A stretch of 64,000 nt of DNA from Psammoneis japonica. Taxonomy: Eukaryota. Made by a program: the position numbers and the translations under genes. The stretch is from contig QPGO01000015.1 of the NCBI GenBank assembly GCA_008632985.1, positions 745,998-809,997 on the forward strand. The letters are read 5' to 3'. The notes below the pieces were generated by a model. The model did no database searches and was not told the DNA's origin. It was given only the letters and a program-made list of their open reading frames with translations. This document shows positions 19,544-64,000 of this stretch, piece by piece (the stretch's first letter is position 1; each line of letters starts with the position of its first letter).

Positions 19544-19545
19544 CA

Positions 19546-25277: not shown

Positions 25278-25989
25278 TGAGTGTCTCTCCATGTGCTCTG
25301 GGCACCAGCTCATCCAGCTGGTTCATGGGGGCCAACGGCATTGCAGACAATCTGTGGGGCACAAGGAGAGCTGGAAGGAGAAACAAAACTCTGGGACTGA
25401 AGCCAAGCTAAAGAGGAAGTCATCAGAGAAGCAGGACAAGCCGGGCTCTGAGAACAAGAAAGACACAAAGAACAACAACAAAAACCAACCAAAGGCCAGA
25501 CAGAGAAGCAGACCACAAAGACACCAGCTCAGAAGGCAGCTGCAGCACCATCCTGGGCAGATGTCATTGCCTCCATTGGCCCACTCGGGAACAAAGATGA
25601 TGACACACAGCACACAAAAGCAACTCAAAAAGAAGTGCAGTTTGACCCAAAAAAACTTGAACAATGGTTCAAGCATCAACAAACAGATGACAGATCTGTC
25701 AAGACCACTCCTTCTGCCTGTTAAAAGCTCAAGGAGAATCAAGATGAAGTGGCTTTGTTGCATCAAGAGACAGCGGAGTTGAGAGCACAACAAAACACAG
25801 ACCCATCTGGTGGTTTGGCTGCATGTCCAATGGACATTGATGGCCATTCCAGTTCCCAGGCTAAGGGAGCTGGTCAAGACCCCCCAGCCACAATGTCAAT
25901 GGCAGATCAGTTGACAACTGCCAAAGGAGGATGAAATCAGGAAACAGCCGGTCAACAAAGAGGCAGGAGGTGGGGAGACAGAACTGCTC

Positions 25990-26770
25990 TCAAACACCAC
26001 AACTCAGTTTGCATCACCTTTCATGAAATCAGTGGATTGCCAGCAAGCATCTCCGATCATGACAAACACAGAGGAGTGCCAGACTGGATCAGTGCACACC
26101 ATGTGGATGCTGTTGAAATTGCTAAAACAAATCTCAACTTCAACAGGACACCCATGCACGAACAATGGTGGGATCATTGGAAAGCCTGCAAGGAGGCAGT
26201 GCATTGGCATCAACAAAAAACATTGCTCTGTTGACAAAAAACATTTGTGCGGGGGTGTCAGTCACTTGCTCATTGGTTCAGTTGGTCATCATCTGACAGA
26301 AAAAAGGAGAAGACCCCCAGATTTGGCCAATGGACCTGGGCTTGATTGCAAGGGAAGGCAGGACCACACACCAGGATCATTGCCACATGCCGCCCAGTGA
26401 AGATCACACATGCCAACCCTGGAAGAGTGTGCTCTCACAGCAAGAAACCTTCCTTCCATCCAAGAAAGATTTCAGATGCCCAAGACAAGCTCCACCAGAA
26501 GATCTGGAAGGAATGTTTGGAAATGGCAGGACAGAGACTGCTTGATCATCCTTGGAGGTGACTTAAACAAAAATGCTTGAGAGGTGCCTTTCTCCACCTC
26601 ATGTGGTGCACTCCTTTGATCTTGATGCTGCTGCGCAGCACACAATGCAACACGTTGGCACACCACAGCCTTCTGTGCCAAACTGGCCATGATGACCCCA
26701 CTGTCTTTTTGCAAGTCCACCTCCATGGACACCATGCAGATCATGTCACTGTGCTGTTGCAAGGCCACTG
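25990..26770 (+). mobile_element. Non-LTR retrotransposon (LINE) fragment with a degenerate apurinic-like endonuclease; probable ORF1 remnants upstream (about 24250-25930)
   Basis: Motifs HVDAVEIAKTNLNF, LGQWTWA*LQGKAGPHTRIIATCRP (family form TYRP) and IILGGDLNKN. Confidence 0.7.
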
Positions 26771-26781
26771 AAAATTCTGCA

Positions 26782-40540: not shown

Positions 40541-42706
40541 GGCAGTCGACACACTGTTGCAAAAGATCTTTGTGGTTGAAGAACTCCAATGACCAAGTGT
40601 ACTGTGCCCTCTGACGTGAATCTTGGGCCGAATTTGGCATCTCCGAAAAGAGACGGGAATGCGACACGAGACACGAGACACGAGAAACAACTGGTTCAAG
40701 CTTTGGTTAGCGGTGCGTGGCGGCGTGGTGTGCGATGGCGACTGGTGGGAATTCTGAATTCTGCGCCTGCCAAATTCGTGTAGAATTCTACGCAAGCCAG
40801 CAGCGCTGCGCCAAAATTTCAAAATTCTGCATGTGCGCGCCGATGCGATGCGTCGCGCGTGACCACCACCACGGCGCCCATGTCTGCCCGCCTCCCGCCA
40901 TCAAGAGAATGGAGAGTGCACAGTGGGGCAGGGCCTCCACCCTCTTCAGTCGAGGCCCGCCTGCCACTTCCAAGAGGCTGCGACTTGCTTCTCCGCTTGG
41001 CCGATGCCTCAAGGAACTCTTTTCTGAAAAAACCTTTGACACTTTACATGGTGATGTCAATCTTTGCACACATGGTGTTTTGTCCCTCCCAACATGACTC
41101 TGTGCATCAAACCTTCAACACCCAGTTTTCAGAATTTGGCTCAGAATTTGGGTCGACACTTGAGTGCTGGCACACTGCAGAGACTTTTTCCAACGATGGA
41201 ATTTGGCTGAATGACAGAAATTGTCCTTTTCATCATCAAAAAGCAGCAGCAAAAGTGCGGTGTGTGTGTGCACAGAGTCAGCTGTCACAGCTGCGCGGCT
41301 GAACACAAGCCAGCTGGCTGTGAGGTCAAAGTGCAGGGGGGCCGGACTTTGTGAGCCAAGCAGAAAACTGAAGATCCCAGTCAGAAATGGGGGGGGGGCA
41401 GCAGAAGGAAGTGCAAAGGCAGCTGTCAAAGTGGAGGGACAGAAGGGGCACATGATGCGGCGCAGCCACACATGAGCTGAAGAGCTTGAACTGAAAGATG
41501 ATGCAAGACGATGCAGCCCAGCATTTGGGTGGCCCACTGACAGAAAGCAGAGGAGTGATGGGTGCTGCCACAAAGTGGTCATTGGCGGATGGTTCCGGGC
41601 AAAGTTAGTGGAAAGAAAAGGGGAAGAAGCGGGGCAGGTGAGGGCACACACGCACGAGGGCAAACAGAGCTGGAGGCACCAGGGCTGTGAAGAGTGGAGG
41701 GAGACTGCCAGGAAGGCTTGGGTTGGGAGCAAGTGGCAGCAAATGAGGAGCCAAGAAAGAAGCAGCAGAAAAGAAGCCAAGAACTGCGCAAGTGGTTGAC
41801 AGCAAAAGGGAGAGGAAAGACCCTGTCAAGGCCTGTGTTCCAGCTCCAGGTGCTCCGCTTTTCATCACGCTAGATTTTCTGCGCAGTTTTCAGCACCAGA
41901 CATTTTTGTCTCCACCCGGCAGAGCTCGCACTTTTTGGCTTTATGCAAACATTGATTGTTTTGATGATGCAACACATTTGTGACATCAACGCTCATGCAC
42001 AACAACTGAGGTGCATGATGCGTCACAGGAAGAATCGTGTCAGTTGGCATTTAATGTTTTTCTGGTGATGCGCAGAACAATGCTGACTTCTACGAACACG
42101 TGCCATCCACCCAACACACACCAGCCACAATGCAGCACACTGCTGTCACCGCTCCACAACCCCCTCTTTGCCCTTGCAATTGCATGGAACCGTCTGTTCC
42201 TTTCATTTCAAAGTTACACCATTGTTGTCATCGCAATGCGATTGCGGCTCTAAAGAGTTGCTGTCATTGCGGATGACACCATCTCTTTGTGTTCTCTCAT
42301 TTCGAATTCGGCAAGTCGTTCCATCATGTTTTTTTTTTGCGCATCACCACGCGCGTGCATTTTTCTGGTTGCTTCTCACGTGTTGTTTTATGGTTGTTTT
42401 GCACCAGGGCCTTCGGAATTTCTACAAAACTCAAGTGTTTGCCCGAGCGTTCTCCGAGTGACAGTTTCTACTGGAACAAACTTGTCTTGGTTTGTTTTCA
42501 CTGTGGCACTTGCTGTTTGCACTTTTCAGCATCTGGAGCTGCCCCAGAGGCTGCCTCTGTTCATCCGCATCACTTTCGCGGCAACTGACGTTGGCCCCCT
42601 CTCTGGAGTGCATTTGTCACACAAGCGGGAGTGCAGCTTGCTGTTTGATGCTTTTCAGCATCTGGAACTGCCTTAGAGGCTGCCTCTGTTCATCCGTGTC
42701 ACTTTT

Positions 42707-45700
42707 GTGGCAACAGATGTTGGCCCCCTCTCTGGAGTGCATTTGTCGTACAAACAGGAGTGCAAAAGCAGTGCACTCACCATGGACACGTTGGCCAAAG
42801 TAGCCTCCCAGCAGCATCCCGTTGGTGGCAGTTCCCCTCAAGCAAACGATGACTCTTCCAGCATGTTGAAGGTTTCCTTTTGCATCCAGCGTCACGTCGA
42901 GGCACTCACGGAACATTGTCCACCGCAGGGTAAAGCCAAAACTTGGCACACTGTGCCTCTCCAAGATGCAGTTGACCCCCTTGAGTGCCCTCAAGGTCTT
43001 GTGTGTTTGAGCATCTTGACCACAGAAGATCGTGGAACAAAGAAGACGAGCCCTCTCTTTCATGTTCTTCATCACAAGAATGGTTTGGATGGGTTCAACA
43101 GTGTCAAAACATGGAGCACACTCCGCAACACTGTTGTCGATTGGTTTTGTGAAAAATTTAACTCCAAGAATCGACCGCAACCAAACCAGTGCATCAAGGA
43201 CAAGAACCAGCACCTCTTGATGTTGGTTGTGGTGCCATCAGGAATGTCGATGAGGGATGCCGTGAAGGACAAGCAAAATGTTGCTGCTGTTTTGATGCAC
43301 CGTGTCAAGACAAACATTGGCCTGCTTGTTGATTGTGTCCGTGTGACAGAGTCTCCGGTTGTGTCAGTTGGGACGGGCGATGAGAGTGAGTCGATCGCAC
43401 CGTTGAGTCGAGGTGTGTGTCCTTTTTTGACTGGACTTGCCCAAGCCATTTGCTGTGGTGTTGTCAAGAAGATGGATGCACACCTTCATTGTCAGAAGAC
43501 TTTGAAGTCTTGTCACATGGGAGTGATGGGTTTTGAGGACATCACAGACACCATGAGTGATCGTTCCGATCTGGCGGACGTCCGCAAGCACTGGGGCTGG
43601 GATGATCTCATGATGAATGATCGAGGCAACACTGTCGCCCTGTGTGCAAAGGAGAGGATCACTCCAATGAGCTCTGCAATTGTTTTGGCATTGCCTCGTT
43701 CCAGCGCCGAGCATCAGAATGTTGCAACAGAGATCCGCAAGGATGAAGACTGTTGGGAGGAACCGCTTGTTGAAGGAGGATGCATTGCTGATCATTCGTG
43801 CATTGCCAAGCGCCGATTCCACTTGGCATCTTTGGTCAACATTCAAAACCTAGAAACACACGATGATGAAAAGCTGATCAAAGATTTAAAGATGCATGAG
43901 TGGCTGCCTTTTGGCGAGGTCATGTTTCAAAGTTGGTGGCAAGTTGAGTCTCCAAAGGGGGTGACGAACAATTTTGAAATGTTGGCTTTGAAGGGGTTGG
44001 ACGTCAAGTTCAAATGTGAAACAAGACACCCCGTTCTATCTGCAAAACAGCGCTGGGGTTCAATCTGCAACCATCGCTCTGTTCCAAACGAAATCGCTCA
44101 GAGGAAGCAGGTGGATGAAAAGCCACTTCGAAAACCATGCATCAGCCACAAGAAGTTTAAGAAGCCCATTGTGGATCACAGCGATGATTGTGTTTTTCAT
44201 GACGAGCATTGCAAAAGGGAGAAGCTTGAACAGTCGGATGACAACATGCAGGAAGATCCCTGCATTCCCGAACTTCCCACCAACGCACCACACAAAGTGC
44301 TCATGAGTTGCACGAGTGGCTGCCGGAGGATTTTCTTTATTTGGGCCATTCAACACCAATGACAGACTGCCATCTGAGGCCTTGTTTAACATCGTTGTAG
44401 GTTGGTGGTACAACCATGCATTGCGGATTGCCTCTGATGGTGAATGCAGAGGCACCACTTGTCCGCCGGACCAGTGGTGCAAGCCTTTCAAGCCGCAACG
44501 ATGCTCCGAGTCAGTGGAGGCCATCACCAAAGACAAACACATGGTTGAAGTTCACTTCCCTGCCAGACCAAGCAGGAAGGAATGTTTCAAAGAGCCGCTT
44601 GCTCACCTTGCTGATTCGTGCAAGGCAGCTCCTGGACTTGCATGGTGCAAGTTTTGCAGAAGGATTCGTTGCCATCGTTGCATGCATCATGCCAGTGCCC
44701 GTGATGCAGGGTTGAAGGAAGAGGTGGAGGAGGAGGAAGAGGAAGAGGGGAAGGAGGGCACTGAAGAGACGGATGACCTGCAAAAGGCCGAGGCTGGCAC
44801 TGCAAGGTTGCAACTGCGAGACAAAAAACCAGGAGGAGGAAGATGGGGCCATGGATCAATTGCCTGAGGAAGAGGAGGAAGATGGGGCGATGGATCAATC
44901 ACCTGAGGAAGAGGAGGAAGATGACGGTGTGCAAGACGAAATCCAGGAGGAGCAAGATCCAGAGGAAACTGAGGACAAGGAGGACGATGAATGCAAGGAA
45001 GAAGTTTCTGTGGCTGCAGAAGAGAAGAGGGAGAAAGCCAAGACTGCCAAAGAGAAGAGGGAGAAAGCCAAGGCAGCTGAAGAGAAGAGGGAGAAAGCCA
45101 AGGCTGCAAGAGACAAGAGGGAGAAAGCCCCGGCTGCAGAAGAGAAGCGGGAGACAGTGGGAGATGCTGGATGCAGACATGCGCATCAGACCTTGAAAGA
45201 AATGGCTGGAGTGCGTGAGGATGAGGATCTCATTGGCCTTTGCAGCTCTGTCCCGAAACCAAGGCCAAAAGGAGACACTTCATGGCGTCGGTTGACCAAA
45301 GTGCAGTGACACCAACAAGAAAGGGATCGACTCAAGCGTGAGTGCAAAGATGCTCAAGTGATGTTCTTGCAGGTTAAAAAACTCATTTGGATTGATCCAA
45401 GCAAATGGAACAGCAGGCGTCAGCATCCTGGCGATTCCAAAGGAGCCGTTCCTCACTTGTTTGGTTGCTTTGAAGGGAAAAACAAGGGCGTCATGTTGTG
45501 GGAACCATGGTTTGACTTGCAATGCAATGAAATGAACGGCCATCCCATGAACACATGTGCGGGCCTCATTTTACGTGCCAAACACAAACCAAACATTCCC
45601 CAGCAACTCAATCGAAAATGCAGGGACGAGATTAAGAACAAGGTGGAATCGATTTGCAACCCACCACAGATTGCCAAACTAAAGAGATTGGCTGAAGCGG

Positions 45701-46940
45701 AGATTCAAAAACTTCCAAATTATGGGCGGGGAGCTGACTTCATTGGTTGCAGCTTGGAGGGGAACTGTCCCATGCATGCAACCCTAGATTGAGCTGAGTG
45801 AAATTTCAAGTTTTGGTTTCCAGATGTGTGGAAAGATTTGAAAGAATTGAAGCCATCGGATGGTTGTCGCTCCTTGCCGGAAGGAAACGTGTTGATGCCA
45901 TCAAACAGCAACTTGCCAACGAGCAAGTCCACCCGTGAAATTCCTGCAAGGACAAAACGACACTTGCATTTTTTCCTCCCTGGCCAGTGTTCTTGATCAT
46001 GCTGGCAACGTGGAAATGAGAGACCACATTGCTTCTCACATTCAAACATCCACCAACTGTGCTGACACCAACAACAAGCGCAAGTTGTTTGCAAAGAACA
46101 TGTTGAACGGTCATTTGAAGGGAAAATTCCCACCTGAGAACTCAAACATGAAGTTTTGCGGCAGTGTGGATCGAACGATTTCCCTTGCAGCAGGTGGTGA
46201 ATTTGACGTGACGACCTGCAATGATGACTTCATAACTTTGTGCAACATGCAGCTGCTGATGAGAGTCAATGTGTCACGGCGACGTGCCACAGCCTTTGAA
46301 TGTCACAAAGGGCGTGACAAAAATAACCTTTTGTCTGCATGCATGCTGCATTGTGAATTCACAGCGGAGTGGTTCATCGCAACCATTGGGCAGGAGGCCA
46401 GGGGTTCGAAACCCTGAGTGGGAGTTGTCTGCAGCAACGTTGATCACTGTCGAACACGTAAAACTCTGTGCAGTTCTGTGTGTTCCTTCGTGCGCACCCA
46501 CACTGTTCCGCCAAAACCATGCAGTGTCAGCACACATCAGTGAAGAGCCGCACGGACGCGTGACACATGGGGAGGAGTGCAACACACAGCTGCTGACAAG
46601 AGCCAATGCATCACGACGACGTGTTGCAGCCTTTAAATGTCACAAAGGGCGTGACAAAAACAACCTTTTGTCTGCATGCATGCTGCATTTGTGCCGTCTT
46701 GTGAACAACCACTGCACTGCCTTGCACCGTGGATGGATCTTTGATTCCAGCCACCCTTTTGCATTGCCAGCAAAGGACATTGAGTGTTTCAATTGGTGTC
46801 TTGGGAACGAGGAACATGAGGTGAAACACGTGGCGAAAAAGCATCTGCAACAAGTGCTCGTGGTGCACCAGTTCGAACTTCCTGGGGCGGTGCAGCAGAA
46901 GTTGTGTGCAAAAAGGAAAGCTTTTGTGTTGGATGGTTGA
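42707..46940 (+). pseudogene. Second (cargo) ORF of the transposon, broken: GNAT-like segment, acidic/charged repeats and a C-terminal papain-like Cys-His-Asp segment
   Basis: LLVDCVRVTE...SRGVCPFLTGLAQAI...AHLHCQKTLKSCHMGVMGF; EEEEEDGAMDQ and EEKREKAKAA repeats; QGQNDTCIFSSLASVL...NNHCTALHRGWIFDSS. Domain calls are by eye. Confidence 0.55.
46241..46687 (+). mobile_element. TRIM (miniature LTR retroelement), 447 bp, with a tRNA-like internal segment
   Basis: 110 bp TG...CA LTRs at 46241-46350 and 46578-46687. PPT ggggaggag at 46569-46577. TSD tttg. Removing it restores the host frame FITLC-RLVNNHC. Confidence 0.9.
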
Positions 46941-46963
46941 TCCAGTTGCACAACATTGCCACC

Positions 46964-49900
46964 TCATTTGTCCAAATTGTCACTGTCACTGTCCCCTGCT
47001 GCACTCTCATCATCCTCCACAGTGTCTTCCATGTCGTCATTCTCTCCCCCCCACTCACCAGCTTCGATGTCTTGTTTGTCCACCTCGTCCAAACAGTCCT
47101 CAAAATGGCCCATTGCCTCCCGCTGTCGGACGGCATCCAGAACTCCTTCATGCTCGTCATCGCTCAAATGACATGGTTGAAGAAGTGAAGCCTCATTCCT
47201 GTTGCACGTGCTTGGCAGCACCAGATTGGCTGATGGCTCATTGAGCTCAATGTTGGCAACCGCAATTTGCTTGAGCAACACTCTTGTCTCACATTCCTCA
47301 GCATCACCGGGAGTGTGCCATCCTCTGGCCCGTGGAACAGGGTTGAGATGCGCTCCCTTGCAAACCCATTCACTGGCCTCAACAATCATGGGCAGGTCAA
47401 ACTCTTTCCAAACCTCGTCCTCCTGTGCTTTGTGGGGGAGTTCATCCCATTGCAGCAGATGGGGTCCCTCCTCAGATTCACAAGACAATGCGGCACAGCT
47501 GTTTGGAACAATTTCCTTGGCCATTTCCTCAGTCAGGAAGTCCAACACAGATTTGTGAACCAGCTGCACCTCGTCGGCGTCACTCTCATCTGTTTGAATC
47601 ACCTGACGCACTTGCCAATCATTCAGTCCCTCAAAGATGGGCCACAGTTTGCAAGCTCGGTTGCCACCTGCATGTGTCATGGCTGCTCTGTTGGCTCGAC
47701 ATTTTTAACCCAAGGCCATTTCAGCTGATCCAGGCAGGCTTCACAAGCACAAGGAATTCTTGCATCGCAACCCAACCAATGGGGAAAAGAGGTTCAAATC
47801 GGAAATGGCACAAGGCTCCAATGCCACAATGGCGCATGCACACTTGCACCAATCCAATCAACTTGACTTTGATTGAAGAGCCAAGAACTTCGTCAGCTTC
47901 CTGCAGATGACACACCCTTTGCATTGGCTTTTGAAGGGATTCCCTCTTGGCATGTTTTCTGTCACCAACTGCGCCGAAAGCATTCTTGTTCTTTGCAACT
48001 GTTTTGCAACATTCCTTTGCATGACTGTGCGCGGCTGCAACACTGTTGTCATCCATGACCAAAGCTTCAGGTCTAATTTTCCCATCCTTGTCATTGACTC
48101 CTGCAACAGTTGTGGGCTGCATTTCTCAATGTGCGAGTGATTTGATGCAGGCTCCAATGCCATCAACCTCTCCTTTGACATGTCCAGGTGCTCCAATGGC
48201 GCGGTCAAACACAATGTTGCATTTGTGCGCAAAGACAGACAACAAGTGCAGTGCCAAAGCACATCGGCATTGTTTGGCACAACCATCAGTGTGATCCCAA
48301 ATCACAAGCCATGCCTCACACAGGTTGCGGTTTTTTAACCAGGTGACAAACTTTTCCAAGTGAGCATTGGTGGTGGTGGCATCTTGCTTGGAAGAGTCAG
48401 AGAGATGCGCATGATGTGTTTTCTGAAGCTCGTTGTCAACCATTGCATCGCAAACTCTTCCTTCGATTGACAATGTTTGGTTGTTGCCACAATGGTCACC
48501 CTGAACTTGGTTGTTGAACTCTGCCTTCTGACGCTCGGAGCAGTCATGAGACGTGAACAGGCTGTTGGGTGTTGACTCAAATGCTTTGCGACGCATTTCC
48601 ATGCAACAATTTTTCCCAAGAATGACCGTGTGGGGAAGGTGGCAGCGGAGCTTCTCTAAACTTGGAATGCAGTGCTCTTTCACAAAGACACCGACTGGTT
48701 TTTGGAACCTTGTCAACAAGGTCCTGCGTTTCACCTTTGCATCCTTGTTCCCATCTGGATCTGCCTCACAAACAGGACATGCTTCCATGTGCACACCATG
48801 CTTGGAACAACTTTTTGCAGTCAAGCAACATTGAAACAAAACTTGGGGTGCACTGGGACTTTCATTCTGTTCCAACAATGGAGTTGGATGGGATGGGCAA
48901 TGCTCGCATTCACCCAAAACGCGTTTCCAATGAGGATGATCATGACCATTGACATTGCCACAAATGATGGTTGCAACTGCATCTCGGGCTTTAGGATGAA
49001 GGTGATGGCCGTTGGGGCCAAAAGCTTCCTCTTGACAGACACGCATTGTTTCCTCCAATTTGCCAAGGGCACTGTCATGGTTCTCCAAGTTCTCAGGATC
49101 CTTGCTCGCAAGCTTCAACCAATTTTGCTCCACCTCCATCTCTTTTAAAAGTTTCCTTTGAAACCTGTTCAATGCATCTTGCAGAAAATTGGCGTTGGTG
49201 CAATCGCTGCATTGACACATGCTGTGTTGACTTGCGTTCATTTTTCGACACTGCTTGGGAGTCAAAAATCGAAACATCGTGTCGCCAAGGAGGGTCTTGC
49301 CATTGGTGTCACGCGCGTGTTCGAATCCGCCAACAGACACAGGCTTCAACATGTTGTTGTGCAGCTCACGCATGGACACATTGCGCAACCATTTGTTCAC
49401 TCGTTTCTTGTTTCCATCTTCATCTTTAATGAGAATCATGTCTCGTGTGTTGGGAGACTGCACCATGTCGGGATGATTTGACAACCAGTGCACAAATGCC
49501 TTTCAGATCTCAGGGGAAACTTTGTGAGGACGCTGACGGGGTTGCACTGAAGACCACATGACATCGTCAGTGTTTGAAATCAATGCCTCTCTGGCAATCT
49601 TTCCCTTCTTCATTTGGCAACAAACAGTGCTCCATTTCAGGCCAAGTGCCTTGGCGCAGTCATGGGAAGACAACTTTTCCTCTTCAGCAGATTTTTCTGG
49701 TGAACCGGAGATTCCAGTTGCAAGAGCACGGACAAACAATTTTTTGTCGTCGGTGAGGTGTTGACCATTGCTGGTGTCATTGGCACGTGCCCACATTTTG
49801 CCCAACTGCTCGGCAATTTGCAAGGCCACAGAATTTGTTTTCGGCAATGTCAAATTGCAAGCCTGAAGAAATGGGGCCATTTCGGGAAAATGCAAAGCAC

Positions 49901-50762
49901 ACACAAATGCACAGATTTGTTGTTCTTGAGTGGCGGCGCAAGACAACACTCCTTCTCTCACTTTGACCGCTGCACGACAAAGTGCCTGTTGGGGATCTTT
50001 GTGGGTTGCTTCAAATGCATGAGGATCAAAAGTGGGGCAACCTTGGGAGGCGGTGAGGTTGACAGCAGTTCGGTTGGCTGAAGCGACAGAGGGAGTGACG
50101 GTGGCATTGTCAGAGTCAGGGTTGGAGGGAGTGGCGGCCGCTCCTGCAGCAAGCATTTGGGAGGGGCCTGGCTGTCTTGGCAAGGACGACCCTGGACAAT
50201 GAGTGGGGTGTTCCTTGGAGGTGTTCGGGTTGAAAGCAGCCAGGTCAGTGGGAGCAACGGAGGGAGTGACGGCGGCATTGTCAGAGTCAGGGTTGGAGGG
50301 AGTGGCGGCCGCTCCTGCAGTGTGCATTTGGGAGGGGCCTGGCGGTCTTGGCAAGGACGACACTGGACAATGAGTGAGGTGTTCTGTGGAGGGGTTTGGG
50401 TTGAAAGCAGCCAGGTCGGTGGGAGCAACGGAGGGAGTGATGGAGGCAGCAGAGCTCGGATTGTTCGGATTGAAGGGAGTGGCTGCAGCTGCTTCAGCTG
50501 CAGCAACGACATGGTCGGAGACCATGGAGTGTGTTTCAAGCTCACGATGAGGCTTCTTGTTTTTGCTGTTGCCAGTCCCTGACTTGTGTCGATGGCCAAC
50601 TCCATTTTGCTTCTTCCTCTTGCTGCCCACGATGCACTGGAAATTTGATTGAAAGTGTGCATTGAGAGGGCTGGTGGATGAGACGGATGGCAAGTCGAGA
50701 GGACACATTTTTTTGGTGTGCTCAATCAAATTCACTGCATTGTGTCTGTAGAAATGAGGCAT
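46964..50762 (-). pseudogene. Degenerate Sola-like transposase
   Basis: Colinear ORFs split by in-frame TGA and one frameshift. Motifs HDCSE...QVQGDHCG, HLSDSSKQD, DHTDGCAKQCR and GAPGHVKGEVDGIGA. Confidence 0.75.
50085..50450. repeat. 180 bp (60 aa) tandem repeat in the transposase N-terminus
   Basis: TPSVAPTDLAAFNPN...PGPSQM..AGAAATPSNPDSDNA repeated about twice. Confidence 0.85.
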
Positions 50763-52223
50763 GTTCGGACGTCAGTTGAGTTGAAGAAGACCAAACACAC
50801 GAGCTCCGAAAAATGTAAAGTGAGTGATCACGAGCATTTTTCACGTGGAATGGGACACCAGCCGAAAATCACATTTGGCACAATTAAGTCCTTCATTTTT
50901 GATCATTTCGAAAATCGAAAGGTGAGTGTGCACCCGAAAACACATGTAAAGTGCACACTTGCCATTCGATTTGGCAAAAAACGGATTTTGAAAAAGTCAT
51001 TTGCGCTGAACCTAAAAGGCCAATGATGGGAATCGAACCCACTCGGAGCACCTGGAGCTGGAACAGGCCTCAAGAGAAAGTGCGGCGATCCCCACAGGCG
51101 CCATCAAAGACAGCATGGCCACAGTGGCAGGGGGAGAGCCAGTTGAGCAGGAAGAAAGGGTGGCAATGGCATGGATGTCAGAAGCAAGGAAGGTGGAAGA
51201 AGAGTGTGATGGGATGAGAGGGAGTGAAGGGAGAGGCTTGCAAGGGGAGAGAGGAGGAAAGAGAAACTGAGTGTCAGAGGGAGTGCCGTCCGGGAGGGCA
51301 GAAGCAGCGAAGATCTGGTGATGATCATGGCAGAGACCAAGGCGGGCAAGACAGAAGGTTGACAGGGAAGCAGTGGAGGTTGCAGAGTCGGGGTCAAGGA
51401 TGGAAGCAAAGGGGTGAAAGAGATGCCACATTGGCCCCAAAAATGGCCCCTGCACGCGTCTTGCTTTTGCCGGCACTGTTCAGCAGACCACCGGTGCTGC
51501 CACTCTCTAGAGTGGAGAGTGGCCACTAGAGAGCAAGTACGGTAGAGCTCTAGCAGAATAGAGACTACGAGATGTTTTATCACTTCATGAGCGTTGCGTC
51601 TTACAGTCCCTACATCGAGTGCCAGCAGCCCCTTCACGCCGCCGGTGCCGAAACAGATCACTTCATAAAACATGTTATTCCTACAAGCTTACTGCTTCTC
51701 GTACCGACCCCAGTAGCATTCTACGTTACATACCAGAATTTTTAATTATTTATTTAGTCATTCATATATCATTTTATGAATTGACAACCACCGATTTTTG
51801 GCACGCGACACCACCACGATGACACGTTCCGTCGAACGAGTTCGGGCCCACTCGGAATAATTACCAAGCCATTTGGGTACAGCTATATCAATGAGGTACT
51901 TGCGGATCATATATGTCTCATTGGCTTGGTAATTCTTTGTGGTTGACAAATAAACGACGGCAAAGGATTCACGTGTTGTTTTGTCGTGCTTTGGCGTCAA
52001 GAGCCAGGTTAGTCGAGTTAATCCCAGTAGAAAACCTACGTAGGCCTACTCTGAGCCACAAGCGCGCGTAATAAGCTTGTATCCGATGGCACTAACTGAC
52101 GAGCTTGCTAATGAACAGATATTGCAACTGACAGAACAAAATGAGAGAATCATAATTGAATGCCTAGATTAATTATGACTGCTGGAAACTTCCAACCTTG
52201 AGGCCACGGAGGAACGAACCAAG

Positions 52224-56849: not shown

Positions 56850-59800
56850 CAGGTTGCGGGGATCGCGATGCTGCTGTTGGCCTGGGCCTTGCACTCCAGG
56901 CTGCCAGCATCTGCCCAAGCACCAATCTGCAGCATGTGTCATGAAGCAAGTTGATCACATCCCACATGATGCTGACCATCTGTTGTCAAGGTCATCTTGT
57001 GGTCAATTGGCTGTGCACATTGTGGAGACCATGCCACAGTCTCAATCGATGCCCAATCTTGGTGCACAGGCAACAAGCACATGCATTGGACACAACAGAC
57101 CAACACTGCTGCAGCCAAACGATCATGCAAGCAGAGCTTCATGCCAAAGAGATGCAACACTCCAATGGTTTGCACATGAATGACCATCAATCGGAGGCTG
57201 CCACTGGTCTTTCATGCTCCAAGAACAAAAAAGGGACATTGCAAAAATGCCAAGATGCTTTCGTGCATCAATTGCCTCTCCTGCTTCTTGGCCCATGGCA
57301 TTCCACCCACATTCACTTTCTGCCCAGATCCAAGGCAACTCCAATGACCCATGCCAAGCATTGAGTGGTCATTTCTTTTCAAAAACCTGTTCTTCCTTTG
57401 CTTGGTTGGCAAGCACAAGAGCCCCGTGCAACAAGTGATGAAATGCACACAATTTGAGTGGTGAGTGGTGGGCACCACAAAGCAGAGAATTTCCAAGATC
57501 ATCAGACAAACACAATGACCAGCACCTTTCAGTGAAAAAGCTGACAGTGAGATGTTGCCAAAGATTCAAGTGAGATTGACTCAGCTCTTTTCCAACCCAC
57601 TTTGCCAGCAACAAGGGCCAAGTCATCATCAAAAGAACAGCACCAGCACAGTGAGATGTGAGCCATTCTTTTCCTCTGCACGGTGCTGGCACAGCAGCTG
57701 CCACACCACATTCAGCTGACATCAGCACTGGAGGAGTCTTCAAATTTGAGTTTGAGGCCATCAGACAGACTGAAATGCTCTGCACTTGATGCTGCATGGG
57801 CTCAAATGCCAGGCTGAAAATTGAGGTCAGGGCCCCATGTGGTGAGCAGCACACATTGTTGATGGGAAACTCAGAAGCAACATTTTGAGCAGCTCTGTGT
57901 GTCACATCAAGTGCCTGTGTTCCATTGACTGGAGATGAGCACCATCAGCAATCACTTGCACCAACCAAGCAAAGATGCCTGTCAGCTGTGGAGCAAAAAA
58001 AGCACCTTTTGCCCTGCAGCTGATCCCAACATTTGTGGGCATGTGCTGTGCAAGGCAACTCACTGAACTGGCTGCTTCATTTGGGAGCAACGCTCATGTT
58101 TTTTCCCTTGCACTTGGCCACAGCACTTCCTGCAGCCACTCCTGAACAAAGACTCTGCCCAATTTGTTGCTGCCCTGCTGCTTCGACAAGCATGGTTGTC
58201 ATCAGAAAGAGCACAAGCATGCAGCATTGGAGATGGGATCAGACAACAGGGCAGCTTGATGATGCTCTCTGGTGTGCTGTGCTTGAAGAAAAATTGCAAA
58301 TGAAAGCAGAACAAATCATGAAAAGTGGAAAATTGCGAGATTAAATTTTGCTCTGTGATTTTGGATTTCTCCAAACAAGAAGCTCTCAATGGCCCAAAGC
58401 ATTTGCACTGCTCCACAGAGCAAAGGCCTTTCAGAGAATCCAGTCATGACAACAGATCATCCAGATGTGATCAACACTGACATCTCATGTGTCAACATCA
58501 TCCATTGTTTGCATCTGCAATTTCAGACATCAAATCAATTCTGTGTGATTGACCTGACCTTTGCATGCATCCATGATTGCCACGCAATTGACACACCTGA
58601 CAACACACAATTGCAAGCACATGCACACTTTCTTCTGTTTGACAATGGACAACACATGCTGTGCTTGCCTTGTCAATTGCACATGTGAGTCATTTGTCAA
58701 ATGGAGTTGTTCGATGGACATTGACTGTGTTGACAATGTCACCACATTTTGATCTGCACTGTGTCATTGGTGTGCACCATTGTCATCTCATGAGGCTCAG
58801 AACAGGGCTGTTCTAATTTTTGCAAATCTTTCTCTGGCAGGATCTTTTCTCCCATGCTGCATGTGCATGGAGCCCATTGTGCATTCTCTCTGGTGTTGTT
58901 TTTGTTCACAACATCTTGTTTTTGTTTCTGAGTGAGCTTCTGGTCAGCAATGTGTTGGGCATCAAATGTTGTGTCTCCTTTGAAGACTGGTTGTCCTGGC
59001 ACAGCTTGTGCAGTGGCATGATGTGTTGAATGTGCTGCAAAGGCTGCTGCAGACAGCATCCCCTCAAATAGATTCTGTGCATCCAGGGATGGATTTTGTA
59101 AATCAAAAGTGCACAGCACATTGCCCAGCCAGCACTTGATGCACATGCTCAATTGCACCATTTGCTTGTTGACTCTGTGCAGTTGTGGGCATGCATTCAA
59201 TGCCACAATCATCTCAAACCACAGCTCTAAATTGGTGTCCAATGAACTCACTTCCATGGTCACAAGCAATTGACAACAGTCAAGGACATCTGCTCAACAT
59301 GTTCTTTCTAACAACCCAGTGACAGTTGTGGATTCCTCATTTGGAATTTCTGCCATTTCAAACCATCCTGTTTGCCAAACACTTCAGGACTGGGTTTTTT
59401 CTGTGCTTTGATGCATCTTGTGTGGTCCAATGAGATCCACACATGTGGTCTTTCCCATCACGCTGATTCTGTGCACTCCTTGGGAGGCAAATGACAGCAT
59501 TTCTTTTGTTTCTTCTTAAATTTCTTGCTCGCCTCACATTTTGACATGCATTTTCTCATGTTCTCATGCAATGCACTTGCCTCTGTGAAAAGTCTTTGCA
59601 TGACATGTCACATCTGACAATTTAGCGAGAATGTCTTTGACCAGTTTTTGTTCAGCATCAAGAACTTTGTGTGTCAACAGAAAGAAATCCTTGTCGCAGG
59701 ATCCAGGTGCAACTTTCTCAGCCAGCTCTTTGTTGCTGAGGTTTTCCACAGGTGTTTTGTTTTCTTCACACAAGTCAACTGATCACATCTGCAATGGCAC

Positions 59801-62800
59801 TGGCCTTGCTCCTGCTGAGACAGATCATTTCAGGACTGCACTCCTCAGTTGTCAGATGCCAACACATGACTCTGTCCATTGCAAATTCTCATTGGTGAGA
59901 TTTTTGTGATCTGTGCATGCATTTGTCTGTTGGCCAAACAGCACATTTCAGAATTGATCAAATGTTTTTGCTGTTGACAGAAGTTCTTTTCCCGCTGCAG
60001 TGTGTCATGCCTGTGCTCCATTTGGCTTGCGGCCATGAAAGTCAATGGGTCTGTTATTCTGCACTGTTGTGACTGCTCCCAATCAAAATTGCTTGCACCA
60101 CCAGCACATGTCTCAAAGAAGGGTGTGTGTTGAAATTTGGGTGTGACAATGACATGTCTTTCAACACAACTGGCTTCACATTTTTGAAAGCTTTTGTTCT
60201 GTGCCTGTCCATCGCCACTCAACCTCCTCAGATGAGGTGAGTTTGGCCAAAGGAGCAAGCACACAAGATTGTTGAGACCACATGTCTTGGTGGTGATTGA
60301 TCTCACCAATGAAACATCATTTCAGTTCCTTGCAAGTTGCAGGAGTTGCAATTGTTTGAATTGCCTCAACTTTCTTGGGCATTGGTCTGATGCCATTTTG
60401 GGTGACACAAAAGCCCAGACAGCTTGCTTCAGGCTCAGCAAAAATGACCTTTTGGCATTGACCTTCAAACTGGCTTGTTGGAACCATGTGAATGTTGTCT
60501 CGAGCTTCTTTTCACATGATCTTTGAAGTCACCTTTTGCCAGGCATGGCACCATGGCATCAGGGCAAGTTCTGACAAACTCTGGTCCTGCCATGAGCTTG
60601 CTTGTGTGCTCCTGAAAAATGTCTGGAGCTCCACAAATTCCCGTTGGAAGCCTGCAGGGCTCATGCTTGCCCCGCAGCATCACGATCATGCACAAACAAT
60701 GTGTGTGTGGTGTCAACTCAATGTTGCAGCATCCCATGTTCAAATTGAGTGAGGTTGCACACATGAATCCTTCTGGTTTCTGTGGCATGTCCTGAATTTT
60801 GGCGAAAGATGCAGAGAGCACATTGACCTTCCATCAAGCTCATGGAAGCGGCAGAAGTCAAACCAAACTCAACTGTTTTCCTTTGGGCTGAACAAAGATT
60901 GGAGCTGCCCACTCAGAATGGCCCGCTCTTCTCAGGACTCCCAACTTGCACAGTCAGTTTGCTTCCCAAGCAGTTGCCTCCAAGGCTTGTGGAACTGGAA
61001 AAGGTTTCACATGGCGCAGAGTTGCGCCAGTGCAAGATCCACCAGTGTTCCTGTCCATTTGCCTGGAGAACTGTCAAAAAGATGTTCAGAAGAAGTTCAA
61101 ATGATCCTGTTCCTCTGGGATCAGATGCCAGTCACATCATTGAGATCAGCAGCATGACAGTCAGTGTGGAGGATTTTTTGTTGATCCTGTCATTAAGACC
61201 ATTCATGGCATGAGATTCTTCAATGTGACCAGCAATCAGCTTTGACACTTTGGCTTTGAAGAGTGCATCAACATTCTTCACTGGCACAGTTGTGTCTTGT
61301 TCCCATTTGATTTGTCTGCTCACAAAATCAAGTGTGACTCTAAGACTGCTCATCAAGTCATGTCCCACAATCATGTCATGTTGCAAAAGAAGTGGCAGCA
61401 CTGTCAACATGTGCTGTCTTCTCAATTCAACTCACACTTGTCAAATGCAGGCAGTGAGAACTGAGTGGAGAGCATCAACTGTCAGTTGTAAAGAACCTGC
61501 CCTTGGTTTCCCAAGTCTTGGTGGCAGATTTCTCATTTCTCAACTTCCACATTGATTTGCACAAAATTGTGGTTGATGATGTTCTGCTGTTGAGAAGAAA
61601 GCACAGAGGCTGATTTTTCTTCTCCCCCCAAGGAAGCATTCACACAAGCAGCAATGGCTGCTGGACCAGTGTGACTGCTTTGGCCCTTTCTCCAGGCTTC
61701 TTCTGACATCCAGCAACATGCAACAAGACTCCTCAACAGGAGCCAGTTGTTCCTCAAAATTGCTGCAAGTCACTTTTTCAAACCAACTGTTTTCCTCACT
61801 GAGGATGCCTGAGTCACATTCCTCACTCTTGTCCATCTGATTCTTTGTGGAGGAACTTGTCTTCAGAGATTTGTTGGTTGCCTGAGTGATCATGAAATTC
61901 AATTCTTCCTGCCTGTTGAGAGGTGTTTTTAGCATCGCAACAAGACCATGTGGGATCGCCATTTGAACATTGCCATTTCATGTTTTGTTCAGCATTCTCT
62001 TGGCATTCTTTTGCTGGCCTGGTCTTTTGATGCCCAGCACTGGCCCACATTGTGGGTGGCTTTCTCATGATGGCTGCACCACTTGTCACAGACTCAGATC
62101 ATTTGGCACCAGATTGGCAACCATTTTTGGGACCACAATGAGATCCATTCTTGGCTTTGGAACCAAACTTGTTGGCAGTGTCAGGCTGGGCATGAGTTTG
62201 GTCAAATGTGTCCTCTCAGTGACCTCCAGGCACTTCAAGAACTCCACCAACTTGTCAAAGGCATGGTCTAAAATTTCAAAACCTTGCAGGGTTGACTGAT
62301 GTTGCCATCAATGAGGTGCATGATTGCAAGCAATGTTGCAGAGCTCATCTTTGTCCAGATTCTGTTTGGACTCAAAGGGAGGATGACACTTGAAATCTTT
62401 GTCAACTTGTTCCTGCATTCAATTGGCAATTTCTTGGATCTTCACAGAGTCCAGCTTCTTGAGTTCACGTCACAGATGCATTTTCTGGCTCTGAAGTGCA
62501 TTCTTGGGAAAGACATGGTCAGAGAGGCAATGATGACATTTTTCAAAGGCTCCTTCATCTTCAACATTCATTGCCTTGTTCTCAAAAACTTGCAGAGCAT
62601 CCCCTTCCAATGACCCATGCACAAGTCAGAAATTGTCAGCTTTTTCTTGATGTTCTGGTCCACCTGAGTTTGCTGAATGTTTTTGAGAATTTGATGTGCT
62701 CAAGGGACTCCCTGCTTGTTGTGGTGCACGACAATGAATGTGTGAGCACAACTCTTCTTGTCTTTTGGATGAAAACACTGCTGCATTTTGAGGTGCTGGC

Positions 62801-64000
62801 TTGGTTTGAGTGTCTTTGGCTCAGAAGTTGACTCCAGCGGTGCAGGTGCAATCTTCTCCGGCTTGATGGCAGACACTGGAGGCAAAAGCTTTGTTTTTGC
62901 ATTTTGCCCTCTGTGGTGTGTGTGCACAATGCACCATGCTCAAAGAATGAGTGCTGCAAATGAAAGTGTGACAAATCATGAAAAGTGGAAAATTGTGAGA
63001 TTAAATTTCACTCTGCAGTTTGGGGTTTCTCTGAGCAAGCTCTCAATGGCCCAAAACATTTGTGCTGCTCCTGCAGAGCAAAGGCCTTTCAGACAATCCA
63101 GTCCTGACAACAGATTGTCCGGGTGCAACCAACACTGACATCTCATGTGTCAACATCATCTGTCAATTGCATTTGCAATTTGAGACATCCAATCAACTCT
63201 GTGTGATCAATCTGACCTTCACCCTCATCCACCATTGTTGTGTGGCTGACATGTGTGATGACACATGACTGTGAACACATGCAATTTCTTCTGCTTGGCA
63301 ATGCATGCTGCACTGAATGTGACACATCAAATGCCACATAAAAAATCTGCAGGAGTGTGGAAAAATTCTGGGCCACAGGGCAGAGCAAATGGGTCATTTG
63401 ATGATGTGTCTTTGAAGCCAGCGGGCTTTTGTCTCAAGGAAATTCTCTGCTTGCCTGCAGCCAAGCTTCCAAAAGCTGGTGGCAAGCCTGAAAGCAGGGT
63501 CCCACCATTGCCCCTTTCCATGAAGACAAGCCTCATGACAATGCTTTCTGGCTGACAACAACTGGGCAATCAACAAAAGCAATTGAGCAAACTGTGCTGT
63601 GACCATCTTTTGATGTTGGCCAGGCCAGCAACACTTGAAGAAAGTTTGGAAGCTTGTGCACCCCCCGAATGTTTTCAAAAAGTGTTCAATGGAGAAGACA
63701 TGCTGACCAAGCACTCAAAAAAAGTCAGCAGCAAAGTTTTTTGAGTGTGAGCAGTTGGAGGTTGGGGTTGGTGACAGCAGCAACACACAACAAAAACTCA
63801 CAGAGGTGTGTGCAGTTTGGCTGGAGAAGTCTTTTTCACAACATCAGCACCTTCTTGGTTGCTTTGCTTGGATGTGACAACAAAAAAGATGCAAGGAAAC
63901 CTTCATGACAGCCACCATCAGAGTGATGAGGCTCTTTTGCTGTTCCTTGGCCCAACAACCTCTCCCCAGCTGCGTGCTTGCAGTCACTCAGATTGTTGCC
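56850..64000. other. TpA- and CpG-depleted block C, running off the window
   Basis: Only about 15 TA seen by eye in 57000-64000. Confidence 0.95.
58295..63310 (-). mobile_element. Degenerate Ty3/Gypsy LTR retrotransposon with both LTRs
   Basis: LTRs at about 58295-58650 and 62955-63310, both starting tgcaaatgaaag. Minus-strand order is gag, protease (HDMIVGHDLM), RT (KIQDM...ATSLNLNMGCC...RLPTGICGAPDIFQ), then RNase H and integrase remnants. Confidence 0.88.

What the first reader, a model, noticed from the sequence alone, without database searches (positions are those of the whole stretch)
57000..64000. Surviving TpA sites are mostly YTAR, implying a TAY target motif
Seen (hand count, approximate): about 15 TAs survive in this 7 kb. 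About 11 are TTAA, CTAA or TTAG (e.g. near 58342, 58814, 59228, 59518, 61193, 62269). The rest are RTAR and none is RTAY. Blocks A and B show the same bias. Inference: if the target is 5'-T-A-Y, a TA is protected on both strands only as Y-TA-R, which matches the survivors. Such trinucleotide specificity suggests an enzyme. TadA-family deaminases recognise UAC in tRNA, and their DNA-acting derivatives prefer a 5' T, but that link is speculative.
Basis: partly seen in the sequence, partly recalled or inferred. Interest (0 to 1): 0.8.

Follow-up and report, generated by a model that had tools for sequence, protein, structure and literature searches.

The report
Flank-dependent TpA loss in diatom transposons
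In stretches of silenced mobile DNA of a diatom nearly every TA has been changed to TG or CA, and the few TAs that remain sit in a protective TTAA-like setting, which points to an undescribed DNA-mutating activity that reads the neighbouring bases.

Summary
Over all three TA/CG-free blocks 96 TpA survive: YTAR 60, RTAR+YTAY 34, RTAY 2. That differs from neighbouring DNA (p=2e-28), from related intact retrotransposons (p=4e-18) and from a new-mutation null (p=2e-18).

The window is diatom nuclear DNA. The loss is true mutation of DNA in place. Conserved tyrosine codons (TAY) are His or Cys in 37 of 50 columns and never Tyr, while other conserved residues are kept in 48-65% of columns. The two LTRs of one element carry TG against CA at 24 sites.

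The predicted order RTAY << RTAR=YTAY < YTAR holds, but the rule is richer than TAY. The hit rate by 3' neighbour runs T>C>>G>A, and an A two bases away also protects.

It is unresolved whether the pyrimidine acts on its own strand (TAY) or both flanks gate a duplex RTAY site: 15 against 8 informative events, and the two models tie. CpG loss is a separate process, almost independent of flanks. The TadA link is untested. Six literature searches found no description.

The parts
11650..28300 (.). Block A: TA- and CG-free DNA (34 TpA left in 16.7 kb)
   Evidence: TA is about 2 per kb and CG 3.6-9.8 per kb. CA/TG is 111-121 per kb against 71 outside. The edges are sharp within about 100-200 bases.
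17475..18921 (+). Left copy of a 1.45-kb direct repeat (LTR-like) in block A
   Evidence: It pairs with 26794-28247 at 74-81% identity in four letters and 83-94% in purine/pyrimidine code. There are 31 TG-against-CA sites.
26794..28247 (+). Right copy of the same direct repeat
40850..51480 (.). Block B: TA nearly gone (46 left in 10.6 kb) but CG only about half lost
   Evidence: TA is 4.3 per kb and CG 32.5 per kb against 57 outside.
46961..49292 (-). Remnant of a protein gene of unknown family in block B, still largely open
   Evidence: Nine metagenomic relatives (28-47% identity). Conserved Tyr columns 17: His 8, Cys 7, Tyr 0. Other conserved residues are kept in 159 of 245 columns. The Atlas gave only a lead to DUF7869, a transposase-associated family, and Pfam gave no match.
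56900..64000 (.). Block C, the region of the finding: 16 TpA in 7.1 kb; runs to the end of the window
58270..58701 (-). One LTR of a Ty3/gypsy-type retrotransposon
   Evidence: It pairs with 62927-63354 at 78% identity in four letters and 92% in purine/pyrimidine code. TG stands against CA at 24 sites. The TTAA at 58342 is kept in both LTRs.
62927..63354 (-). The other LTR of the same element
58750..61540 (-). Decayed pol region (RT, RNase H, integrase) of the gypsy element, with frame shifts
   Evidence: Pfam RT_RNaseH, E=2.7e-6; 66 homologous pol proteins align here by tblastn. Conserved Tyr columns 33: His 11, Cys 11, Tyr 0.

Best explanation
SETTING. The window is nuclear DNA of a diatom. 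Three blocks of old mobile-element DNA have been exposed to a persistent process. It acts on DNA in place, works on both strands, and turns the A:T pairs of TpA into G:C (TA to TG or CA).

FLANK RULE. The rate of this process depends strongly on the bases around the TpA. It is highest when a pyrimidine follows the A on both strands (RTAY; ATAT, ATAC and GTAT have no survivor). It is lowest when A follows, and lower still when AA follows (TTAA, TTTAAA). The surviving TpA are therefore mostly YTAR. They are the slow class of a graded specificity, not an untouched class.

STRAND CHOICE.

CpG. The loss of CpG in the same blocks is a second process, almost flank-blind and slower. It fits deamination of methylated cytosine.

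SHOWN: the direction of the change, that it happens after integration, the flank dependence, the separation from CpG decay, and the persistence.

INFERRED: an enzyme that reads at least two bases on each side. The most likely candidate is a nucleic-acid deaminase that converts adenine to hypoxanthine in silenced chromatin.
For: DIRECTION AND MASS BALANCE. Per flank class, the loss of TA plus CG equals the gain of TG plus CA within about 3-5 per kb.

PROTEIN LEVEL. Conserved Tyr (always TAY) is His or Cys in 22 of 33 columns in block C and 15 of 17 in block B, and is never Tyr. Other conserved residues are kept in 338 of 703 and 159 of 245 columns (Fisher p=9e-10 and 5e-8). In block B, TA loss therefore far outruns general decay.

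AFTER INTEGRATION, BOTH STRANDS. The LTR pair of block C differs by TG against CA at 24 of 96 shared pyrimidine-purine sites. Over ten duplicate pairs the count is 92 of 580. On the coding strand His and Cys are about equal (19 and 18).

FLANK DEPENDENCE. See, with the p-values given under the observation check.

ORIENTATION. In purine-flanked sites the gain of CA exceeds the gain of TG in 4 of 4 sub-blocks (all blocks pooled: 13.3 against 5.9 per kb). Ile ATA-R gives ACA 5 and ATG 1. One duplicate shows GTAG against GCAG. A run contig reads TTGT for the window's TTAT.

PERSISTENCE. LTR pairs differ by 12-13% transitions outside pyrimidine-purine steps. About 40 TA-against-TG/CA pairs would therefore be expected among about 330 TG/CA sites (my arithmetic), but 2 are seen.

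SEPARATE FROM CpG. Block B has lost about 90% of TA but only about 45% of CG. CG survivors vary only 0.22-0.58 by flank. Five of 70 related metagenomic elements are CpG-poor with normal TA.

NOT A CONSENSUS ERROR. Contigs built by another assembler from a public run match block C with 0-5 differences per 0.5-1.8 kb at unique depth.
Against: STRAND CHOICE. Among Tyr codons preceded by a pyrimidine the products are Cys 9 and His 7. The per-strand hazards fitted to the survivors predict about 4 His (P=0.074). A 50:50 split fits as well.

MODEL TIE. The additive and multiplicative models of survival tie.

MASS BALANCE. The CA/TG asymmetry is confounded with products of CpG. In a rough comparison across four sub-blocks (my arithmetic) it scaled with CG loss at least as well as with TA loss.

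CODON BOUNDARIES. At TA sites that span a codon boundary, TA-A to TG-A changes are not rare. At Asn/Lys codons preceded by a pyrimidine there are 11 TG, 27 CA and 2 TA.

BASELINE. The density of TA before mutation is assumed, not known.

INDEPENDENCE OF THE READS. The run that confirms the sequence is probably the sample the window was assembled from, so it is not independent.

IDENTITY OF THE BLOCKS. Blocks A and B have no Pfam-recognisable transposon domain. 'Mobile element' rests there on repeats and on an Atlas lead only.

ENZYME. No enzyme, no base modification and no dependence on repeats or on sex has been shown.
Confidence: 0.5

Rival explanations
1. Duplex-site reading. The activity recognises the double-stranded palindrome RTAY (extended, non-A flanks on both sides). 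The two flanks jointly decide whether a TpA is hit, and which of the two A:T pairs is changed is then close to random. The survivors are the same, but the target is not a single-strand trinucleotide.
For: The multiplicative model fits the survivors as well as the additive one (logL -18.9 against -18.5). In my hand calculation it fits better if the counts are treated as an equilibrium between creation and loss. Tyr products are near 50:50 in both contexts: YTAY gives Cys 9 and His 7, and RTAY gives Cys 9 and His 12.
Against: Ile ATA-R gives ACA 5 and ATG 1. The gain of CA exceeds the gain of TG at purine-flanked sites in 4 of 4 sub-blocks. Pooled informative events are 15 against 8, which is not significant against 0.5 (p=0.21).
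Confidence: 0.28
2. Thymine-directed chemistry. The base attacked is the T of TpA, not the A. One route would be oxidation by a TET/JBP-type enzyme to 5-hydroxymethyl- or 5-formyluracil, which mispairs with G and gives T to C. The flank rule is then read on the other strand as R-T-A.
For: Sequence alone cannot tell an A-to-G change from a T-to-C change on the complementary strand, so every count above fits both. From memory, not from a call: thymine hydroxylases of trypanosomes and the hydroxymethyluracil of dinoflagellates favour T before A, and 5-formyluracil causes T-to-C transitions.
Against: No evidence from this window. No such enzyme or base is known to me in diatoms (recalled, not searched).
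Confidence: 0.12
3. RNA editing before reverse transcription. Transposon RNA is edited A to I (by ADAR- or ADAT-type enzymes) and the edited copies are integrated.
For: Editing by fungal tRNA deaminases needs U before the A (PMC11156358, abstract seen in the listing), which matches the TpA requirement.
Against: The two LTRs are copied from one RNA, yet they differ by TG against CA at 24 sites. Changes are equally common on both strands (His 19, Cys 18). The gene in block B has no reverse-transcriptase relatives. Fungal editing favours UAG and UAA (same abstract), which here are the least-hit contexts.
Confidence: 0.02
4. Sequencing or assembly artefact. Modified bases in silenced DNA are miscalled, so true TA and CG are written as TG or CA.
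For: At 63913-63914 the window has CA where the only contig of run X1 has TG. The run is probably the same sample.
Against: Contigs assembled independently from the run reproduce the TA/CG-free sequence at 66-72x word depth with 0-5 differences per contig. Random miscalls on the two strands would also write CG and TA, which are absent. The blocks also carry frame shifts, 3% transversions and 12-13% other transitions between LTRs.
Confidence: 0.03
5. No specificity. The remaining TAs are recent random mutations, or reflect the original composition of the elements.
For: About 16 TAs in 7 kb is the order expected from about 1% new transitions at TG/CA sites (my estimate).
Against: The flank classes of TG/CA in the blocks are even (24/51/24%), against 60/34/2 observed (p=1.9e-18). 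Related intact elements have 25% YTAR and 28% RTAY. The TTAA at 58342 and 63002 is shared by both LTRs, so it is ancestral.
Confidence: 0.01

Closest known systems
Repeat-induced point mutation (RIP) of Neurospora and other ascomycetes
   Same: Dinucleotide-specific transitions wreck mobile or duplicated DNA in place, on both strands, in blocks with sharp edges, leaving a strongly skewed dinucleotide content. Diatoms carry DNMT4 enzymes that group with the RIP enzyme RID, and their function is unknown (PMC9998398, passages read).
   Different: RIP changes C:G to T:A at CpA and so creates TpA. Here A:T becomes G:C at TpA and CpA/TpG pile up, the exact reverse. A cytosine methyltransferase-like enzyme cannot act on TpA. 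Dependence on duplication and on the sexual phase is unknown here. Part of block C (56900-58135) has only one laid contig, so no close copy is seen in that run.
CpG decay by deamination of 5-methylcytosine in methylated transposons
   Same: The CG to TG/CA part of the pattern, with little flank dependence. It is also seen alone in 5 of 70 related elements from metagenomes.
   Different: It cannot touch TpA. In block B the TA loss is nearly complete while CG loss is about half.
tRNA adenosine deaminases (TadA; ADAT2/ADAT3) and the fungal mRNA editing they perform
   Same: They have an absolute need for U (T) directly 5' of the deaminated A (fungal editing: PMC11156358 abstract). From memory: TadA reads U-A-C-G, and the trypanosome ADAT2/3 can also deaminate C in DNA.
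   Different: Their substrates are RNA hairpin loops, not chromosomal DNA. Fungal editing favours UAG and UAA, which are the protected contexts here. No gene could be examined.
ADAR hyperediting and APOBEC hypermutation of retroelements
   Same: Clustered transitions that inactivate retroelements.
   Different: Both act on one strand of a replication intermediate and give strand-asymmetric changes and identical LTRs. Here both strands are hit and the LTRs differ. From memory, ADAR favours a 3' G.
CTAG depletion through very-short-patch T:G mismatch repair in enterobacteria (recalled)
   Same: TA is converted to CA/TG in a defined tetranucleotide context.
   Different: There CTAG is the tetramer that is lost. 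Here CTAG is among the better survivors (6 against 51 outside, ratio 0.12, compared with 0.006 for RTAY).

Membership tests
RIP (Neurospora type) | C:G to T:A transitions, mainly at CpA, so that TpA rises and CpA/TpG fall | tested here: not met
   TpA falls to 2-4 per kb and CpA/TpG rise from 71 to 99-121 per kb.
RIP (Neurospora type) | Mutation of chromosomal DNA after integration, on both strands | tested here: met
   LTR pairs carry TG against CA at 24 and 31 sites. His and Cys products are about equal.
RIP (Neurospora type) | Triggered by sequence duplication, in the premeiotic phase, needing a RID/DNMT4-type enzyme | not testable with these tools
   No genome is held and no crosses are possible. 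Only the published presence of DNMT4 in many diatoms is available (PMC9998398).
5-methylcytosine CpG decay | Loss confined to CpG, giving TpG/CpA | tested here: not met
   It is met for the CG component. The finding concerns TpA, which has no cytosine and is lost faster than CG in block B.
TadA / ADAT2-ADAT3 type adenosine deamination | T (U) immediately 5' of the target A | tested here: met
   Block-wide near-elimination of an A-containing dinucleotide is specific to TpA. ApA and GpA change little and ApT falls by at most about 30%. Conserved Tyr codons are all changed.
TadA / ADAT2-ADAT3 type adenosine deamination | 3' neighbour preference of the known enzymes (C for TadA, recalled; G or A for fungal mRNA editing, PMC11156358 abstract) | tested here: inconclusive
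   The order here is T>C>>G>A. C is well hit, as for TadA, but T is hit at least as well. G and A, favoured in fungal editing, are the protected neighbours.
TadA / ADAT2-ADAT3 type adenosine deamination | A deaminase-fold gene responsible for the change; hypoxanthine as intermediate | not testable with these tools
   No genome is held for the window. None of the window's ORFs scanned gave a deaminase domain.
ADAR hyperediting of retroelement RNA | Changes only on the transcribed strand, made before integration (identical LTRs) | tested here: not met
   (LTR discordance). (His 19, Cys 18 on the coding strand).
Very-short-patch-repair type CTAG loss | CTAG is the tetramer preferentially lost | tested here: not met
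   CTAG has the fourth-highest survival of the 16 NTAN tetramers.

The most novel reading that the evidence does not exclude
This diatom has a natural DNA adenine deaminase, or an equivalent base-modifying enzyme. It is aimed at silenced mobile DNA, reads an extended RTAY-like site, and erases TpA. That would be a genome defence which is the mirror image of fungal RIP, and a natural counterpart of engineered adenine base editors.
Probability: 0.3. Interest if true: 0.95.

Novelty: new variant of a known kind. Interest (0 to 1): 0.8.

Why it matters
Point-mutation defences against transposons are known only as cytosine deamination: RIP, the TCG hypermutation of rust relatives, APOBEC, and CpG decay. 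A process that removes A:T pairs at TpA from mobile DNA, at a rate far above general decay and with a readable flank code, would be a second chemistry for genome defence, in a major group of marine algae.

The flank code measured here is T>C>>G>A at the first neighbour, with A protective at the second. It is a concrete fingerprint. It can be used to screen candidate enzymes (deaminase-fold or thymine-oxidising proteins) on oligonucleotides. It can also recognise the same process in other genomes, and undo it computationally when classifying decayed repeats.

A natural enzyme that makes A:T to G:C changes in chromosomal DNA would also interest the base-editing field.

There is a practical consequence for annotation. 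TAA and TAG vanish from such blocks, so dead elements keep long open frames in several phases and can be called as genes.

Tried and rejected
- WHOLE GENOME. None is held for the window, so genome-wide tetramer counts, family consensus sequences and a search for deaminase genes were impossible.
- EARLIER FINDINGS.
- SIX-FRAME SCANS. Scanning their 40 longest ORFs of 150-250 aa instead gave no transposon domain, and five further long ORFs gave none at E up to 5.
- PROTEIN ATLAS. It gave nothing for ORF 42677-44362. For ORF 48126-49502 it gave only a 0.92-score lead to DUF7869, which Pfam did not confirm.
- RNA. No RNA holder is listed among the public runs, so nothing can be said on expression.
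- SPLITTING TA- AND CG-DERIVED PRODUCTS. I tried to separate them by comparing sub-blocks with different CG loss. With four points the fit is ill-conditioned and I do not rely on it.
- DIRECT TA-AGAINST-TG/CA PAIRS. Only 7 sites were found in duplicates, almost all YTAR, too few for orientation.
- CODON-BOUNDARY TEST. It depends on an unknown ancestral T:C ratio at third codon positions and is inconclusive.
- ARG-CODON TEST FOR CpG PRODUCT ORIENTATION. CAN 16 against TGN 8, with no flank pattern.
- LITERATURE. Searches covered diatom plus hypermutation, TpA/TpG plus genome defence, RIP-like plus diatom, adenine deamination plus repeats, diatom plus TpA plus CpG, and repeat-induced plus adenine deaminase. 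None returned a paper describing TpA-directed mutation of repeats. The library lacks most subscription journals, so this is not proof that it is unpublished.
- RELATED ELEMENTS. None of 70 related metagenomic elements is TA-poor. That search was seeded with Tyr-containing peptide patterns and would miss mutated copies, so it says little about how widespread the process is.
Full report
WHAT THE WINDOW IS

The non-block parts carry ordinary eukaryotic genes. An ORF at 5931-7103 (-) is a bestrophin whose best relatives, at about 80% identity, are proteins of pennate diatoms. The other Pfam matches are an Fpg/Nei-type glycosylase, an SNF2 helicase and a PDZ protein. No whole genome is held.

In 1-kb bins the window falls into two states. 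Ordinary DNA has 31-77 TpA and 38-76 CpG per kb. Three blocks have 0-11 TpA, and TpG+CpA rise from about 140 to 200-258 per kb. Finer counts place the blocks at 11650-28300 (A), 40850-51480 (B) and 56900-64000 (C), with edges sharp to 100-200 bases.

CpG is almost gone in A and C (3.6-9.8 per kb) but only about half gone in B (32.5 against 57 per kb).

THE OBSERVATION

Block C holds 16 TpA: 11 YTAR, 4 RTAR, 1 YTAY and no RTAY. Only the single TTAT at 60055 was overlooked.

Over the three blocks 96 TpA remain: YTAR 60, RTAR 20, YTAY 14, RTAY 2. The 1206 TpA of the neighbouring DNA split 195, 335, 322, 354 (p=1.8e-28; each block alone p<=1e-7).

Two other baselines give the same answer:
- 273 kb of related, coding-intact gypsy elements fetched from metagenomes have 24.8% YTAR and 27.9% RTAY (p=4e-18).
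- If the TAs were fresh transitions from TG or CA they would inherit the even flank distribution of those dinucleotides, 24/51/24% (p=1.9e-18).

The TTAA at 58342 and 63002 is the same site in both LTRs, so at least some of these TAs are true survivors.

THE LOSS IS MUTATION OF DNA IN PLACE

Four lines of evidence support this.

1. Mass balance. In each flank class the loss of TA plus CG is matched by the gain of TG plus CA to within 3-5 per kb.

2. Proteins.
- Block C contains a decayed Ty3/gypsy element on the minus strand (RT_RNaseH; 66 homologous pol proteins). At 33 columns where the homologues agree on tyrosine, whose codon is always TAY, the window has His 11, Cys 11, other 11, and never Tyr. 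Other conserved residues are kept in 338 of 703 columns. Conserved arginines read CAN 16, TGN 8, CGN 1 and AGR 7; the other 17 of the 49 columns carry other codons.
- Block B contains the remnant of a gene of unknown family (46961-49292, minus strand; nine relatives). It is otherwise well kept (159 of 245 conserved columns; Trp 5/5, Cys 15/17, Pro 12/14), yet its 17 conserved tyrosines are His 8, Cys 7, Leu 1, Pro 1 (Fisher p=5e-8). In block B, therefore, the attack on TpA has run nearly to completion while general decay is still mild. This is targeted hypermutation, not slow drift.

3. LTRs. The LTR pair of block C (58270-58701 and 62927-63354) is 78% identical in four letters but 92% identical in purine/pyrimidine code. 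It has 77 transitions against 20 transversions and carries TG opposite CA at 24 sites. A second long direct repeat in block A has 31 such sites. LTRs are identical at integration, so the changes happened afterwards and independently on the two strands. Together with the equal numbers of His and Cys on the coding strand, this excludes editing of transposon RNA.

4. Independent assembly. Contigs assembled by another pipeline from a public run reproduce block C at unique depth (66-72) with 0-5 differences per 0.5-1.8 kb. A consensus or polishing artefact is therefore unlikely. The run is probably the source sample, so this is not independent biological confirmation.

THE PROCESS IS PERSISTENT

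Between LTRs, sites outside pyrimidine-purine steps differ by 12-13% transitions and about 3% transversions. At that rate about 40 of the roughly 330 aligned TG/CA sites of the two LTR pairs should show TA in one copy (my arithmetic). Two do. New TpA in unprotected contexts are evidently removed again.

THE FLANK RULE

Each TpA can be treated as two adenines, one per strand, each with its own 3' neighbour. A model with one loss rate per neighbour then gives per-strand survival of A 0.68, G 0.34, C 0.10 and T 0.06.
- It fits the ten strand-symmetric tetramer classes closely (observed 26, 13, 28, 11, 2, 8, 0, 6, 2, 0; fitted 28.4, 13.2, 25.4, 8.6, 1.1, 8.4, 1.3, 6.9, 2.5, 0.3).
- It beats a flank-blind model (p=8e-31) and a purine/pyrimidine-only model (p=3e-5).
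- The next base out also counts. After TA-A, a second A is found in 60 of 104 half-sites, against 168 of 540 outside (p=3e-6). The same trend holds after TA-G and TA-C (position frequencies).

The protected site is thus TTTAAA-like, and the most exposed sites are ATAT, ATAC and GTAT (0 survivors against 272 outside).

CpG survivors show only a shallow flank effect (block/non-block ratio 0.22-0.58). Five of 70 related metagenomic elements are CpG-poor with normal TpA. CpG decay is therefore a separate and ordinary process.

IS THE TARGET REALLY T-A-Y ON ONE STRAND?

The survivors cannot tell. A model in which both flanks multiply, as for an enzyme reading the duplex palindrome RTAY, fits as well (logL -18.9 against -18.5). 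The products can tell, because TAY predicts YTAY to YTGY and RTAR to RCAR.

In favour of TAY:
- At purine-flanked sites the gain of CA exceeds the gain of TG in all four sub-blocks (13.3 against 5.9 per kb overall). CpG products confound this.
- Conserved Ile read as ATA-R has become ACA five times and ATG once.
- One duplicate shows GTAG against GCAG.
- The run contig reads TTGT for the window's TTAT.

Against a strong effect:
- Tyrosine codons preceded by a pyrimidine became Cys 9 and His 7, where the fitted rates predict about 4 His (P=0.074). A 50:50 split fits well.
- BLOSUM scoring favours Tyr-His over Tyr-Cys and may slightly inflate His at the ends of alignments.

Pooled, 15 events fit TAY and 8 do not, which is compatible with both 0.5 and 0.75. 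The opposite orientation, with a purine two bases upstream directing the change, is rejected (P=0.006).

MECHANISM

Shown:
- an activity restricted to the blocks, acting on both strands, after integration, and persistent;
- it converts TpA to TpG/CpA at rates that depend on at least two neighbours on each side;
- it is distinct from CpG decay.

Inferred:
- An enzyme, because spontaneous chemistry would respect neither block borders nor such a flank code.
- Adenine deamination to hypoxanthine is the simplest chemistry. The strict need for a 5' T recalls tRNA adenosine deaminases, and the fungal mRNA editing they perform needs U at -1 (PMC11156358, abstract). However, that editing favours UAG and UAA, which are the protected contexts here.
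- Attack on the thymine (oxidation to a G-mispairing base) is the same event read on the other strand and cannot be excluded.
- What directs the activity to the blocks is unknown: repeats, methylation or chromatin state. Diatom DNMT4 enzymes related to the RIP enzyme RID exist and have no known function (PMC9998398, passages), but they could account only for the cytosine part.

COMPARISON AND NOVELTY

The phenomenon works like RIP in outline but is its chemical mirror image. RIP makes TpA from CpA; here TpA is destroyed and CpA/TpG accumulate. It fails the defining tests for ADAR or APOBEC hypermutation, for CpG decay, and for repair-driven CTAG loss (see the membership table).

Six full-text searches found no description of TpA-directed mutation of repeats in diatoms or elsewhere. 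The library is incomplete, so this is not proof of absence. I rate it a new variant of a known kind (mutational genome defence). There is a fair chance that the enzyme behind it is categorically new.

LIMITS

- One 64-kb window, 96 surviving sites and 23 orientation-informative events.
- The ancestral TA density is assumed from neighbours and relatives.
- Blocks A and B are called mobile DNA on the strength of repeats and a weak Atlas lead, without a Pfam domain.
- There is no independent sample, and no enzyme or modified base has been examined.

Noticed in passing
window 41000-51480 and 11650-28300: TAA and TAG are absent from the blocks, so many long open frames survive in several phases and on both strands (for example 42677-44362, 561 aa; 48126-49502 plus 49503-50771). 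Most have no Pfam match. Gene callers would probably report them as genes.
   Followed up: partly
window 46961-49292 (-): This gene remnant has nine 'hypothetical' relatives in metagenomes and no Pfam domain. The protein Atlas places it near DUF7869 proteins, which are sometimes joined to a DDE transposase. It may be an unclassified DNA transposon family of diatoms.
   Followed up: partly
window 52231-54125: A tandem array of eight 228-bp units (68-96% identical) lies in ordinary, TA-containing DNA, with long open frames on both strands (52179-53099 +, 52224-53534 -).
   Followed up: no
window 32050-35355: An Fpg/Nei-type DNA glycosylase ORF (32050-33789, -) lies head to head with an SNF2-type helicase ORF (33949-35355, +), 160 bases apart. 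A link to the mutation process was not examined.
   Followed up: no
LTR pairs 17477-18921/26795-28247 and 58270-58697/62927-63350: Outside pyrimidine-purine steps the LTR copies still differ by 12-13% transitions against about 3% transversions (ratio 4-5). ApT is lower and GpC higher in blocks A and B than outside. A weaker second target, such as A before T, may exist.
   Followed up: partly
window 19350-19495 and 28273-28417: This 146-base segment is repeated at 97% identity in purine/pyrimidine code. The second copy straddles the right edge of block A and still has TA and CG where the inner copy has CA and TG. The mutated state may therefore stop inside a repeat rather than at its end.
   Followed up: partly
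window 63913-63914 and 60056: The only contig of run X1 over these places reads TG where the window has CA, and G where the window has the A of TTAT. These may be allelic copies that were mutated independently, or assembly differences.
   Followed up: no
window 58136-58402 and 62942-63208: The LTR of the gypsy element has summed word depth in the thousands in run X1, against about 66 for unique DNA. In all, 939 contigs of that run were laid on 56000-64000 at 85-100% likeness. This is a high-copy family, perhaps with many solo LTRs.
   Followed up: no
blocks B and C, conserved Leu columns: Conserved leucines read TGG three times in block B and TGA four times in block C. Transitions cannot produce these from any Leu codon. 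The cause is unexplained and may be misalignment or a T-to-G change at TTG/TTA.
   Followed up: no
loci L021, L023, L038, L069, L070: Five of 70 related gypsy elements from metagenomes have CpG observed/expected of 0.12-0.22 with normal TpA. They show plain CpG decay in other hosts.
   Followed up: no
window 8621-8745 and 9558-9682: An inverted repeat of 125 bases (97% identical in purine/pyrimidine code) lies in the most TA-rich kilobase of the window (77 TpA in 8001-9000).
   Followed up: no
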